Part shown: positions 24,223 through 41,216 of the stretch, one piece after another | How positions within the stretch are numbered: the first letter of the stretch is position 1 | Layout of the letters: each line of letters opens with the position of its first letter | Assembly (NCBI GenBank): GCA_951406725.2 | Contig: OX597817.1 | Location: forward strand, 46,190,001 to 46,254,000 | Direction: 5' to 3' | DNA: 64,000 nt | Source: Octopus vulgaris | Lineage: Eukaryota | Notes under the pieces: generated by a model | The model's database searches: none | Seen by the model: only the letters and a program-made list of their open reading frames with translations | What the model was told of the DNA's origin: nothing | Position numbers and translations under genes: made by a program

Positions 24223-26800
24223 ATGTGTTAGTCAAACTGCAGGCTTTTTTCTTAGAGATTCGCTTCCATCCCGAATGAAAAGGAAATTAGTTAAAGTTGA
24301 TTTTTCTGTTATAGTTCAAATGATTTTTAATTTTGTTAATGCTTTACGAGAGCGCTAGTGTACAAGAATATAACCCCTGTATCTCGAATCAAGCGTAACC
24401 GTATATGGAGAACACAATCAAAGGCAAGCGGAGATTGTTGATCCATTGACAAAATACATTTCCCTGGCTATGCTCATAAAGCGGAAGGAGAATGGAATTG
24501 AAAACGATCCCAGAGATTCATCGTTAGCTGAAGACGCCATTCCATGTTGCAATCTATATAAAAGATGCTTCTTGTCATTTCTAAAAAGTTTATCTTGCTT
24601 TTGTCTGTTCATTCAAACAAGAAACCGATGAATGAAAAGGTTGGAATGTGCTATGTAGTCACTGTTATTTATGTCTATCATGGTGATTTTGGGAATATGG
24701 TATCGTTTTCTATCTGAATTTGGAGATTGCTATAGCGTAACGTTGCCGGATATGGGTAGCGATGACGAGCGCTCCGTAGGAAACTTCTCTTCGAGAAATG
24801 TAATAATTTGATGGAAAGGTTATTAATGTTACAGCAAAATCTAGAAAAACTACCCACTTGATAAGATAGGAATCTCTCGGCCTTAAAATAATGAATTCGA
24901 AATATCAACGGAATATGTACAATGTTAAATCTACAACACATTGCTAACAGTTAATCTCCAGCATCTACAACTCGTCCTTTGCCTTATCCTGTTTGAATGA
25001 CATGTAACTTATTAATTTCTGCAAAGAAATTTTGCCCACGTCACACATCCTGCAACTATAAATTGATTGACACCCCCAAATTCATACCGCCAGCAATATA
25101 TTTAGATAAGAGGGAGATATTTTGAATAAGCACATTAGTAAATATATTCTAAAGTCAAAGCCTTTATACCTCTCTTTGACACTTGAACGTACACCAGAAG
25201 TTCTCTGTATATATATATATGTGTGTGAGCTCGCGTGCACACACACACACACACACACACACACACACACACACACACACACATATGTATATAAGAAATG
25301 ATTAAGATTCAGTTGAATTATGTACTTAAGCTGAAGCAGCAAGTCAGTCCGGTATTAACTGCACAGCTCGTGCACTTATTAAATTTCCCTGAATTGGCAT
25401 CTTAAGTTTCTTAGTATCTTGCCCCTTTAACTGGAAATTACTATCATGATTTAAAGTTTACCGCTACCCTGTCTCTCCTTTATAAACAGTTACTTCAATC
25501 AAATTGATTTTTTCTAATGTCTTATTTCCTTTCTTTTAGGGAAAAGGGGTACCTATGATAATATTTATGAACATACCCAGCCATGAGTTGTCAAATCACT
25601 CTTGTTCTTTATTCAAAATAGACGCAGTCTTCTAGTCTCAAATTTAATAGATGATAAAGTGATAAATAAATTAGAAATGAATTACAGCCCTTACAACCCT
25701 ATGACCCCTCTATGCTCCATACGATTCTAAGAAATTGTAGTCTATTCGTAGCCCCTTTGTAACAATAGCGAGAATATGAATTTTCTCCATCTTTTTACTT
25801 TAAGAAAAATTGTATTAATGCGTCCTACTAATTAAAAAGTTCTATATTTGCTGTAACTGAAGATAATACAGCATTTAAATTGATGTAATGATTGCATTGT
25901 TTAATTAAATGGAGCCGCTTGAAACGGTCGTACTGTATTACGACTTGATATCCTGTTTGTTATTTTCATTATATATATTAAGTACATGTTCATGTTTATG
26001 TATGCCTGATTAAATTATATTTCCAGCGTTAACTAAAAGTATATCAACAAACAAACACAAATCTGAAAAATATAGCGGACGGTAGTCTGCCTGTAATAAT
26101 CAGATTTTGATATTCAAATTTAAACATATAAAAACATATATATTAAATTAAAAAATGGAAACAAATTTCAGAATAGCAATTAAATCCGCATTCCAACACG
26201 CATAGAGAGGTGGGGGCAGACACAATTGTGTGCAATAAGTTCAAATGTCTTCATATTTTCATATACCCCATTTCTGACATCACCACAAAATCTACAAATC
26301 CATAAGCGGCATATTCATTAGAGGCAGTCGACAAGAGACCCCAAAGAAGAGGGTGTAAATATAAAAAAATGTCATGTAAAGTTAGGACAGGCATAGTTAA
26401 GAAGAAAATGGTAATGACTAGTAATATTTATCGATACCGAGAAAGTGAAAGACAAGGTTGATACCGGTGGGTCTGTAACTCATTTTACAGTCAAGAGGTA
26501 CACCTATAATGATAAACTACTGCTATAATACTCCCTTCTAAACACATCTAATACGTATGTACCTATTGGTATGTTTGTGTGGAAATATATACGTGAAATA
26601 TATATATATATATATATATATATATATATATATATATGTATATATTGGCAGGGCGGGCCTGCTAGGTAGCCGGCCAGAATGCTAGAAGAAGATCATCAAC
26701 GATCAAACTATAAGGGAAATTCTCTAGAGGAAGAATTCAGCGAACACCAGAACCAAATTTGGCGGGCAGGACATATGAAAAATTAAATAAAAACAGACTT

Positions 26801-26878
26801 AAATGCATACCTCGGTTTCGGTCTTAACAAAAGAATTACTTGCATAATTCAAGTGTCCGTGACTTCATCAGTACATTC
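26801..26878 (-). ncRNA. Type I hammerhead ribozyme motif
   Basis: Reverse complement of 27115-27192. Confidence 0.8.
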
Positions 26879-27114
26879 GGTCCTCGAGATGCAAACCGCA
26901 AGACTAACCCCAGCTCTCTGTGTCAAGACAGACACATGCTTAGTCTTACTGATTACATCGGGAATAAAATTTCAAATGTCTTGGCTCTGGCGCGCTAAGA
27001 GACTCCTGAAGCGAAGGGCTGCAGTGAATAATTCACTGCGGGTAATGCTTACAACTAGGGTAATGCTTACAACAGAGAGCTGGGGTTAGTCTTGCGGTTT
27101 GCATCTCGAGGACC

Positions 27115-27192
27115 GAATGTACTGATGAAGTCACGGACACTTGAATTATGCAAGTAATTCTTTTGTTAAGACCGAAACCGAGGTATGCATTT
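27115..27192 (+). ncRNA. Type I hammerhead ribozyme motif
   Basis: gaatgta-CTGATGA-agtc-[37 nt]-gacc-GAAA-ccgagGT-A-tgcattt. Stem I is 7 bp with G-U pairs; predicted cleavage after GUA (27185). Confidence 0.82.
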
Positions 27193-39927: not shown

Positions 39928-40700
39928 TAGGGGGCAAGGACACGGTCGAGGTATTTAGAGATGAGCTCCGTGGGGCAGTTACAGGCGGAGACGATGGGGC
40001 CGCCAGGGTTGTTGGGTTTGTGGATTTTGGGGAGGAAGTAAATGGTGGGGGTACGTGGGGTTAGCACAATTAGGTTGGATGCGGTGCAGGGGAGACGGGA
40101 GGACGAGATGAGGTCGTGGACAGTAGAGGATACCGTCTGTTGGTAGCTACGTGTGGGTTAGAGGGCAGAGGGGAATAGAAGGAGGTGTCATTGAGTTGGC
40201 GGAAAGCCTCGGCCCTATAGAGGTCCGCGCGCCACACCACTACAGCTCCACCCTTGTCAGCCGGTTTGATGATAATGTCAGCGCGCCGTTGGAGGGAACG
40301 AAGAGCCAAGAGCTCAGCCGGGGAGATGTTGAGGCGGCGTTGGCGCCTGGAGAAGTTGAACCGCTCCAATGCACGCTGACAAGCGCCCGCGAAAAGATCC
40401 ACTGCTAGGATCTGGCCAGGGGCAGGCGTCCACGGGGATGGTCGGCGGCCCAGGCCAGTGAAGCAGTCCTCTTCGTTGGGTGTGGGTGGCGAGTCGTGGT
40501 AATGCGCACCCAACCGGACACGGCGCACAAAGCTGTGGACATCAACTCGCGTCTGGAATTCCTTACAGGATGGAGTGAGGGGGATGAAACGCAGACCCCT
40601 ACCAAGGACGGAGCGTTCAGCCGCAGAGAGGGGAAGATCGGGGGAATGGTAACAACAGATGGAAGTGGAGAAGGGGTGGGTGGAATAGAAGTAGGAGGGG
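39928..40700 (-). pseudogene. PLE ORF N-terminal part (frameshifted)
   Basis: LSAAERSVLGRGLRFIP, IIIKPADKGGAVVVW (DKG motif), and by hand translation [19 protein letters not shown]. Confidence 0.9.
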
Positions 40701-40878
40701 TGGTAGGTCTCGTGGAGGTCTGAGGGGGAGGGATTGGGGAGGTGTGTGGTTGGTGGTTGGGGGGGCAGTAATGTATGCATCTATGTATGAATGTATGTAT
40801 GAATCTGTGTAAGTATATATTCATATACACATATATACAATATATATATATATATATATATATATATATATATATATA

Positions 40879-41216
40879 TAAAATTAAATAAGGGTAGAAA
40901 TTGATATTAATCAATTAAAACCAGTGGCCTAGTTTTTTTTTTTAAATCCGAAGATGAAAATTTCTTTACATACAAAATATAGAGGACTGACCACTAAAAG
41001 AGGAGAGCCTATATGCTAAATATAGACGTCAAAATCGCCATTTTCCACGAAGAGTGTGTTCTCAAGAAAAAGCTCAGCAAAAGAAAAACAAAATGTAAAA
41101 ATGCTGAGTTTTTTCTTGAGAACACATTCTTCGTGGAAAATGGTGATTTTGACGTCTATATCTAGCGTATAGGCTGTCTACTTTTAGTGGTCAGTCCTCT
41201 ATATTTTGTATGTAAA
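40879..41216 (-). mobile_element. Non-coding fold-back element: 115-bp arms (40965-41079 / 41102-41216) plus an unpaired 3' tail
   Basis: Arms differ at about 8 positions. The tail 40879-40960 resembles the 3' end of the 27478-28006 unit (actggtttta.attga...aatat.aattt...ccct). Confidence 0.8.

What the first reader, a model, noticed from the sequence alone, without database searches (positions are those of the whole stretch)
26642..41216. Four different elements share one fold-back architecture
Seen at 26642-28006, 34570-34917, 34936-37485 and 40879-41216: one arm runs to a full end abutting (TA)n, while the inverted arm stops about 85-175 bp short of that end and also abuts (TA)n. Spacers are short or contain small local duplications. 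Where an HHR or half-HHR gives polarity, the truncated inverted arm is on the 5' side. Established: PLEs can carry inverted partial pLTRs. Inference: first-strand cDNA snaps back and copies itself, then rejoins the (TA)n target, so this is a recurrent palindrome-generating integration route rather than MITE-type TIRs.
Basis: partly seen in the sequence, partly recalled or inferred. Interest (0 to 1): 0.72.

Follow-up and report, generated by a model that had tools for sequence, protein, structure and literature searches.

The report
Twin-primed Penelope palindromes in TA repeats
The four mirror-image repeats are real, lopsided insertions from four Penelope-like jumping-gene families that sit in TA microsatellites, and their fixed ends indicate that each likely formed when both cut DNA strands started copying the same RNA at two different fixed points, which would explain a known but unexplained shape of this group.

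Summary
Observation confirmed; mechanism changed. E2 and E3 are 3' stumps of autonomous RT + GIY-YIG Penelope-like elements with Hydra-clade motifs. E1 and E4 are related ~540-bp tandem hammerhead (retrozyme-like) families. Arms are head-to-head. One arm ends at the full end (L), the other at a family-specific inner site (F), about 97, 150, 172 or 88 nt earlier. Both ends abut (TA)n. Simple snap-back fails as the general route. Among 67 position-ordered E3 insertions, 14 have only an F-ended arm. The tail-less arm reaches further 5' in 10 of 40 simple palindromes, and in 3 the arms do not overlap. All 44 two-armed insertions with canonical ends are F+L, never F+F or L+L, and both arms carry the same subfamily alleles (170 of 177 sites). 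Best reading: twin priming of one RNA from two start sites. Fold-back may still do the joining in a near-symmetric subclass (17 of 40, 3 expected). The inverted-pLTR-plus-tail shape is published; tails here are about 2-6 times the published 30-40 bp. This scan's earlier, unchecked AI notes reached the same twin-priming reading on other DNA.

The parts
26598..26645 (.). (TA)n target flank of E1, tail-less side
26642..27060 (-). E1 tail-less (F-ended) arm, unit positions -526 to about -100 of a 546-bp tandem hammerhead unit
26815..26871 (-). Hammerhead core motif (CUGANGA...GAAAC) in the E1 inverted arm; motif match only, activity untested
27041..27073 (.). E1 head-to-head junction with a short local duplication
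27072..28005 (+). E1 tailed (L-ended) arm: partial unit plus one full unit; hammerhead cores at 27122-27178 and 27667-27724
28005..28110 (.). (TA)n flank at the E1 full end
34519..34571 (.). (TA)n flank of E2, tail-less side
34570..34663 (-). E2 tail-less arm (-251 to about -157/-150); 3' stump of an autonomous RT + GIY-YIG family of about 3.7 kb
34665..34917 (+). E2 tailed arm (-253..0); holds only the 3' half of the family hammerhead (GAAAC at 34689-34693)
34918..34935 (.). (TA)9 shared by the full ends of E2 and E3
34936..36324 (-). E3 tailed arm (-1374..0) of a 5575-bp autonomous Hydra-type Penelope-like family; hammerhead core at 35322-35418
36327..37485 (+). E3 tail-less arm (-1318 to -176/-172); hammerhead core at 37178-37274 with long helix II (z -4.5)
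37484..37508 (.). (TA)n flank of E3, tail-less side
40881..41102 (-). E4 tailed arm (-221..0) of a ~535-bp tandem hammerhead unit homologous to E1; the hammerhead lies upstream and is absent from this copy
41102..41216 (+). E4 tail-less arm (-201 to about -87), followed by (TA)n at 41216-41264

Best explanation
These are insertions of Penelope-like elements (two Hydra-type coding families and two non-coding hammerhead repeats that are likely their passengers), and each palindrome likely forms by twin priming: both nicked strands of a (TA)n target would start reverse transcription on the same RNA, one at the full end (L) and one at a fixed inner site (F). Steps: (1) Shown: families, polarity, fixed F and L ends, (TA)n at both ends, and F and L joints at a native TA/AT of the element in several registers. 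(2) Inferred from PAc biochemistry (PMC11167929): a dimeric RT-EN nicks both strands and starts at two RNA sites that flank the tail. The tail is probably the structured RNA the protein holds (untested). (3) Inferred: the two cDNAs run 5'-ward for largely independent distances; the trailing one would have to displace the leading one. (4) Inferred: their 3' ends join head-to-head by microhomology or a short filler, and each templates the other's second strand. In the near-symmetric subclass, both may stop at one RNA end, or one may fold back before annealing to the other. (5) Inferred: if only one primer extends, the result is an F-only or L-only copy, the published 'optional tail'.
For: E3, 67 clusters from the first 100 of 1142 pattern matches (all on contig C1; classes hand-tabulated): 40 simple F+L, 4 complex F+L, 14 F-only, 5 L-only, 3 with a non-canonical end or broken, 1 split by N gaps. 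There were 0 F+F and 0 L+L among 44. Of the 40 simple ones, F arm longer by >25 nt in 10, L arm longer in 13, within 25 nt in 17; no overlap in 3 (L208, L212, L249). Among the 21 asymmetric ones (>70 nt apart) arm lengths are uncorrelated (rho 0.09). L148 has a 5.4-kb F arm and a 557-bp L arm. L325, L327 and L329 are full-length tandem copies ending at F. E2, 55 of about 73 clusters: 37 simple F+L, F longer in 14, L longer in 16, L arm inside the tail in 5. E1: multi-unit F arms with short L arms (L004) and F-only arrays (L005, L027). Same template: arm-to-arm distance 0.3% vs 2.3% to other copies, lower in 50 of 51; subfamily alleles concordant at 170 of 177 sites. Tail alleles track alleles in the part that only the F arm covers, which arm-to-arm conversion cannot homogenise (mean r 0.59 vs 0.34, p 0.02, 11 insertions). 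Junction overlap of 3 nt or more against a simulated null run through the same pipeline: E3 21 of 37 vs 91 of 288 (p 0.003), E2 14 of 31 vs 71 of 289 (p 0.015), E1 11 of 21 vs 61 of 283 (p 0.003). End registers. In vitro precedent: PAc cuts and extends both strands, starts at two inner sites that bound the tail, and is predicted to be a dimer.
Against: No biochemistry for these families. The near-symmetric class is in strong excess in E3 (17 vs 3.1 expected; 13 vs 2.0 without the -950 group), as fold-back predicts; in E2 it is weak (7 vs 4.0, p 0.06). Frangieh et al. saw no difference in start site between top and bottom strands and no homology between primer and start site, whereas here F and L are strictly paired and TA-matched. 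The second end is looser in the non-coding families: 11 of 40 E1 insertions have a second end elsewhere, including one near L+L case (L293), and E4 has one L+L case (L093, among 31 loci). Arm identity could partly reflect gene conversion or assembly polishing (33 private variants in both arms vs 38 in one). The tail-to-extension linkage has 2 negative cases of 11. No A-to-G editing mark is shared by both arms (5 of 48 vs 10 of 85). No coding partner was found for E1 or E4. The E1, E2 and E4 samples are partly enriched for tail-bearing copies.
Confidence: 0.66

Rival explanations
1. Single priming at L, fold-back of the cDNA, then endonuclease cleavage or synthesis stop at F and joining to the target. 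Later asymmetric deletion of palindrome centres produces the lopsided and single-arm forms. This combines the reader's model, the published 'EN-mediated resolution' and post-insertion erosion.
For: Excess of near-symmetric palindromes; junction microhomology; both arms share alleles; F sites are TA-like and so could be nick sites. Self-priming is proposed in PMC3846280 and EN resolution of the tail in PMC8557442. Instability of long palindromes is recalled knowledge.
Against: It needs deletions of up to 5 kb starting exactly at the centre (L148), removal of the whole tailed arm up to the TA in 14 of 67 E3 insertions, and arms with no overlap (8 cases in E2 and E3). Young 99-100% identical copies already show F-longer forms.
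Confidence: 0.17
2. Pure snap-back: first-strand cDNA copies itself and rejoins (TA)n, with no later change.
For: It fits three of the four window elements and the 30 of 40 simple E3 palindromes in which the tailed arm is as long or longer.
Against: It cannot make the F-longer (10 of 40 E3, 14 of 37 E2), non-overlapping or F-only classes.
Confidence: 0.05
3. Twin priming, but on two different RNA molecules held by the dimer, or on two tandem pLTR copies of one long transcript.
For: Heavily overlapping arms would need no strand displacement. Tandem pLTR-ORF-pLTR copies exist. Two RNAs from one source locus would also give shared alleles.
Against: Strict F+L pairing (44 of 44) is simpler with one RNA and two sites. 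Arms of different subfamilies were rarely seen (7 discordant of 177 sites).
Confidence: 0.08
4. MITE-type TIR elements, two chance insertions into one microsatellite, or library or assembly chimeras.
For: Palindromic shape and TA flanks; very low arm divergence in E3; short-read contigs did not confirm the window's own junctions.
Against: Ends are asymmetric; families encode RT + GIY-YIG; there is no (TA)n between arms; polarity is one-way; the F end recurs at the same base on many contigs; arms differ by 2-13% in the window and flanks are not mirrored.
Confidence: 0.04

Closest known systems
EN+ Penelope-like insertions with an inverted 5'-truncated pLTR and a one-sided tail (Adineta Pen2a, PMC3846280; overview in PMC8557442)
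   Same: Head-to-head inverted copy, tail on one side only, partial tandems, palindromic or microhomologous junctions.
   Different: Tails of about 88-175 nt rather than 30-40 bp; (TA)n flanks hide any TSD; the tail-less arm is often the longer or the only arm, which the published self-priming or EN-resolution proposals do not predict.
Hydra clade PLEs, including Hydra-1_Obim of Octopus bimaculoides (PMC8557442 section 11 and supplement S1)
   Same: C-terminal GIY-YIG without CCHH, RWx and DKT motifs, CxCX5C linker (E3), CxxC and CxH around the conserved E and N, hammerhead motif, (TA)n targets.
   Different: E3 is 5.6 kb and E2 about 3.7 kb (Hydra generally <3 kb), with asparagine-rich inserts; E2 lacks the CxCX5C linker and has AKT for DKT, yet targets (TA)n.
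PAc (Poseidon of Anolis carolinensis) in vitro system (PMC11167929)
   Same: Two inner RT start sites bounding the tail; both target strands cut and extended; AT-rich targets.
   Different: The PAc start sites lie inside the ORF start, have no primer homology and show no strand difference; the paper does not derive the palindromes from them. Here the tail is in the 3' region, and both ends match TA.
Animal non-LTR retrozymes (PMC7229834; bioRxiv 10.64898/2026.07.22.740005)
   Same: E1 and E4: non-coding tandem units with one type I hammerhead motif each, dispersed in many short arrays, low GC.
   Different: Units are 535-546 bp (about 300 bp typical); they insert with PLE F/L inverted geometry; circular RNA and self-cleavage were not tested.
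L1 twin priming (recalled, not from a call)
   Same: Both target strands prime, giving a 5' inversion; the non-overlapping cases look the same.
   Different: The second primer site is fixed near the 3' end rather than random, so the arms usually overlap into long palindromes.

Membership tests
EN+ Penelope-like element (E2, E3) | Single ORF with RT and C-terminal GIY-YIG | tested here: met
   E2: 790-aa open frame with both domains (L322). E3: RT and EN halves in broken copies; no intact E3 copy among the 13 scanned. Identified by motif and alignment. Pfam gave no hit for the two E3 halves; 152 homologs.
EN+ Penelope-like element (E2, E3) | Partial tandems forming pLTRs, inverted 5'-truncated copy, one-sided tail | tested here: met
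EN+ Penelope-like element (E2, E3) | Hammerhead motif in the pLTR | tested here: met
   Core motif and helices. No Rfam hammerhead hit; helix II is much longer than canonical.
Hydra clade | RWK and DKT motifs in the RT N-terminus | tested here: met
   E3 has RWR and DKT. E2 has AKT, and its N-terminus is not covered by the frame.
Hydra clade | CCHH absent; CxxC and CxH around the conserved E and N | tested here: met
   E3 and E2 both
Hydra clade | CxCX5C linker | tested here: inconclusive
   Present in E3; absent in all three E2 copies read
Hydra clade | (TA)n insertion | tested here: met
Hydra clade | Generally <3 kb (a tendency, not diagnostic) | tested here: not met
   E3 unit is 5575 bp; E2 about 3.7 kb (L133)
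Hydra clade | RT phylogeny with reference Hydra proteins | not tested
   No reference sequences were in hand as tool sequences
Non-LTR retrozyme (E1, E4) | Non-coding tandem unit with one type I hammerhead | tested here: met
   546-bp and ~535-bp periods; core motif at the same place in both
Non-LTR retrozyme (E1, E4) | Self-cleavage and circular monomer RNA | not testable with these tools
   Only contigs were served, no raw RNA reads (run for an E3 stretch)
Tc1/mariner-type MITE | Symmetric terminal inverted repeats, fixed length, no RT | tested here: not met
   Ends asymmetric, lengths from about 30 bp to over 7 kb, RT-bearing families

The most novel reading that the evidence does not exclude
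Hydra-type Penelope RT-endonuclease works as an asymmetric dimer clamped on a long (90-175 nt) 3' RNA tail. It primes both strands of a nicked (TA)n from the two sides of that tail on one RNA, so every double-primed event yields an F+L palindrome in which the two cDNAs prime each other's second strand. This would be a retrotransposition route that needs no separate second-strand priming, is borrowed by retrozyme-like passengers, and seeds this genome with hundreds to thousands of 0.3-8 kb near-perfect palindromes.
Probability: 0.45. Interest if true: 0.72.

Novelty: new variant of a known kind. Interest (0 to 1): 0.52.

Why it matters
How Penelope-like elements make their tandem/inverted insertions, their one-sided tail and their microsatellite bias is named as open in PMC8557442, and the steps after priming are unvalidated in PMC11167929. 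The strict one-F-one-L rule, the F-only full-length copies and the non-overlapping arms tie the in vitro two-start-site result to the palindromes in vivo. They give exact, testable start sites in young families, with tails long enough to mutate. It also shows retrozyme-like repeats carrying the same integration footprint, direct genomic support for mobilisation by PLEs, and warns that such palindromes can be misfiled as MITEs. The shape itself is known, which caps the score.

Tried and rejected
Rfam: no hammerhead family hit in the window or sub-regions, so hammerhead calls rest on motif and fold. Pfam: no hit for the two E3 ORF halves. Independent runs: no RNA holder listed. Contigs of 4 runs laid on the E3 and E1 centres bridged neither junction in the rows shown; they are short unitigs and 85 and 241 rows were hidden. 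This is inconclusive. The single opposite-strand joint is same-polarity in element terms and was not used. First microhomology null compared exact matches with BLAST overlaps, was unfair and was replaced; its exact-extension column was unreliable and was ignored. 5' ends piling at the E3 hammerhead cut site (-380): a few ends lie at -383..-374, but 5 insertions in -380..-341 vs 5 in -460..-421 is no enrichment. A-to-G editing shared by both arms (lead from e1-10280452): not seen. An apparent E2 hotspot at -380 is partly identical-junction duplicates. A third coding family was checked as partner of E1/E4: no similarity. MITE, chance double insertion and chimera were rejected (see rivals). Literature: 'Penelope' + 'twin priming' gave 3 papers, none on PLE mechanism by title or abstract start (not read). 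Searches listed no paper proposing twin priming for PLE palindromes; subscription journals, Repbase notes and bioRxiv supplements were not searchable.
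Full report
Observation. Arm identity is 97% for E1 (26.6-28.0 kb), 98% for E2 (34.57-34.92 kb), 98% for E3 (34.94-37.49 kb) and 86.5% for E4 (40.88-41.22 kb). Every outer end abuts (TA)n. Numbering from the full 3' end (L = 0), the tail-less arms stop at about -97/-105, -150/-157, -172/-177 and -87/-93. I call this inner end F. The genome is 2.8 Gb. A database protein 100% identical over 37% of the E3 ORF is labelled Octopus sinensis, so the host is likely an octopus.

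What the families are. Each element belongs to a dispersed family; exact 21-24-mers match 423, 169 and 1142 times for E1, E2 and E3. E3 is the 3' 1.4 kb of a 5575-bp unit that occurs as pLTR-ORF-pLTR and encodes RT plus a C-terminal GIY-YIG. E2 is the 3' end of a related family with a 790-aa open RT-EN frame (49% identity to the E3 RT half). Their motifs match the Hydra clade as defined in PMC8557442 section 11: RWx, DKT, no CCHH, CxxC and CxH around the conserved E and N, CxCX5C linker, hammerhead, (TA)n target. E2 lacks the linker, both are longer than the usual <3 kb, and no tree was built. A Hydra family is already listed for O. bimaculoides. E1 and E4 are non-coding tandem units of 546 and about 535 bp that align along their length and carry a type I hammerhead core at the same place, like animal non-LTR retrozymes. 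Their coding partner was not found. Hammerhead calls rest on motif and fold; Rfam gave none.

Polarity: among neighbouring opposite-strand matches within 12 kb in the first 100 matches per family, head-to-head vs tail-to-tail was 29:1 for E3 (the exception, L257, spans N gaps), 25:0 for E2 and 22:0 for E1. Fixed tail: F recurs at the same few bases in E2 and E3, and both F and L join the (TA)n at a native TA/AT of the element in several registers. In E1 the second end is at F in 17 of 28 two-armed insertions and scattered between -16 and -204 in 11 (40 insertions). E4 shows about -88/-93, -131 and one L+L case. MITE-type symmetric ends are absent.

Why not snap-back. I took all 67 E3 clusters from the first 100 of 1142 matches of a pattern just upstream of F (position-ordered, contig C1), fetched them and tabulated them by hand. 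There were 40 simple F+L palindromes, 4 complex F+L, 14 F-only, 5 L-only, 3 non-canonical or broken, and 1 gapped. No F+F or L+L occurred among 44. In the 40, the tail-less arm reaches further 5' in 10, the tailed arm in 13, and 17 are within 25 nt. In three the tailed arm lies wholly inside the tail and shares nothing with the other arm. Outside this sample, L148 pairs a 5.4-kb tail-less arm with a 557-bp tailed arm. Within it, three full-length tandem copies end at F. For E2 I held 55 of about 73 clusters, partly enriched for tail-bearing copies and with one identical-junction pair counted twice. 37 were simple F+L, F longer in 14, L longer in 16, tailed arm inside the tail in 5. A fold-back copy of a tail-primed cDNA cannot give these classes, so F must be an anchoring site in its own right.

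One template. E3 arms of one insertion differ by 0.3% on average vs 2.3% from other copies (lower in 50 of 51) and agree at 170 of 177 subfamily sites. Conversion or polishing could contribute: 33 private variants are in both arms and 38 in one. In insertions where the F arm extends beyond the L arm, however, tail alleles still track alleles of the unshared extension (mean r 0.59 vs 0.34 shuffled, p 0.02, 11 insertions, 2 negative). Junctions show modest excess microhomology against a simulated null: E3 21 of 37, E2 14 of 31, E1 11 of 21 with overlap of 3 nt or more, vs 22-32%. A further 16, 7 and 4 junctions have fillers. These junction sets mix position-ordered and best-hit loci.

Mechanism. 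Frangieh et al. (PMC11167929; parts 1-2 of 4 read) showed that a purified PLE protein, predicted to be a dimer, cuts and extends both target strands and starts at two inner RNA sites that bound the tail. I infer the same here: one nicked (TA)n strand primes at L and the other at F on one RNA; the two cDNAs run 5'-ward and are joined head-to-head; single-primer events give F-only or L-only copies. Against this, or unexplained by it: that paper saw no strand difference in start site and no primer homology, and near-symmetric palindromes are in excess in E3 (17 vs 3.1 expected; 13 vs 2.0 without the -950 group), though barely in E2 (7 vs 4.0). These may reflect both RTs stopping at one RNA end, or fold-back as the joining step; the loops fall on either arm. 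The main rival is fold-back with cleavage at F and later centre deletions (0.17).

What is known. The inverted truncated copy with a one-sided 30-40 bp tail is described for PLEs (PMC8557442 passages; PMC3846280 passages). Those papers propose self-priming and EN-mediated resolution and call the mechanism open. PLEs are the proposed mobilisers of retrozymes (PMC7229834 passages; bioRxiv 10.64898/2026.07.22.740005 abstract and passages; its supplements were closed). Eight literature searches listed no paper proposing twin priming for these palindromes, within the library's limits. I had stated the twin-priming reading before opening this scan's notes. Several unchecked AI notes reach the same reading in this and other genomes; they are not independent evidence. 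One lead from them, shared A-to-G changes, failed here, and ends at the ribozyme cut site were not enriched. Short-read contigs neither confirmed nor refuted the window's junctions.

Verdict. Real and recurrent; a known PLE insertion shape in Hydra-type and retrozyme-like families with unusually long tails; best explained by twin priming rather than snap-back. New variant of a known kind; interest 0.52.

Noticed in passing
E3 family, position -944 from the full end (window 36702 region; loci L178, L199, L231, L232, L244, L250, L255, L258, L154): A sharp hotspot of 5' ends in both arms and in single-arm copies (9 of the 67 C1 clusters between -950 and -942). It sits in a short native inverted repeat. 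It may be a transcript start, a processing site or an RT stop; no Rfam hit and no stable fold.
   Followed up: partly
L322:5849-8218, L323, L124 (E2 family ORF): The E2 protein lacks the CxCX5C linker that PMC8557442 associates with (TA)n targeting, yet the family inserts into (TA)n. Its copies could have been moved in trans.
   Followed up: partly
window 37509-40780 (minus strand): A broken RT + GIY-YIG element of another PLE type (Neptune-like linker, label recalled) with a minimal hammerhead-like motif at its 3' end; an 80% identical inverted copy of that end lies at 41266-41462, beyond E4.
   Followed up: partly
L342 (G000:C4:134761700-134768900); also C27:29162615-29172512: A third, very young family related to E2/E3, with at least 63 stop-free ~727-aa frames. 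It includes a head-to-head palindrome with 99.9% identical 3-kb arms, each holding an intact ORF. A diverged fragment lies at window 2447-2599.
   Followed up: partly
L046 (C2) and L274 (C1), E2 family: Two insertions on different contigs share the same junction and an arm-specific variant, suggesting a palindrome re-copied as a unit or a segmental duplication.
   Followed up: partly
L148; E3 unit start: A full-length tail-less arm stops within 2 nt of the unit's first base, just after L of the preceding unit, hinting that the unit-length RNA begins there.
   Followed up: no
E2 and E3 ORFs between RT thumb and EN: Long asparagine-rich inserts, like those reported for Adineta Penelopes.
   Followed up: no
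window 9614-9978, 16237-16586, 29700-29990, 51887-52437, 53937-54309: An abundant 184-bp tandem repeat family scattered across the window in both orientations; probably a known octopus SINE family (recalled).
   Followed up: no
window 34918-34935: E2 and E3 share one (TA)9 at their full ends, so one inserted into the microsatellite flanking the other.
   Followed up: no
window 7291-7749 and 47387-48046: Fragments of LINE-type RT ORFs. A 100-N gap lies at 7909-8008.
   Followed up: no
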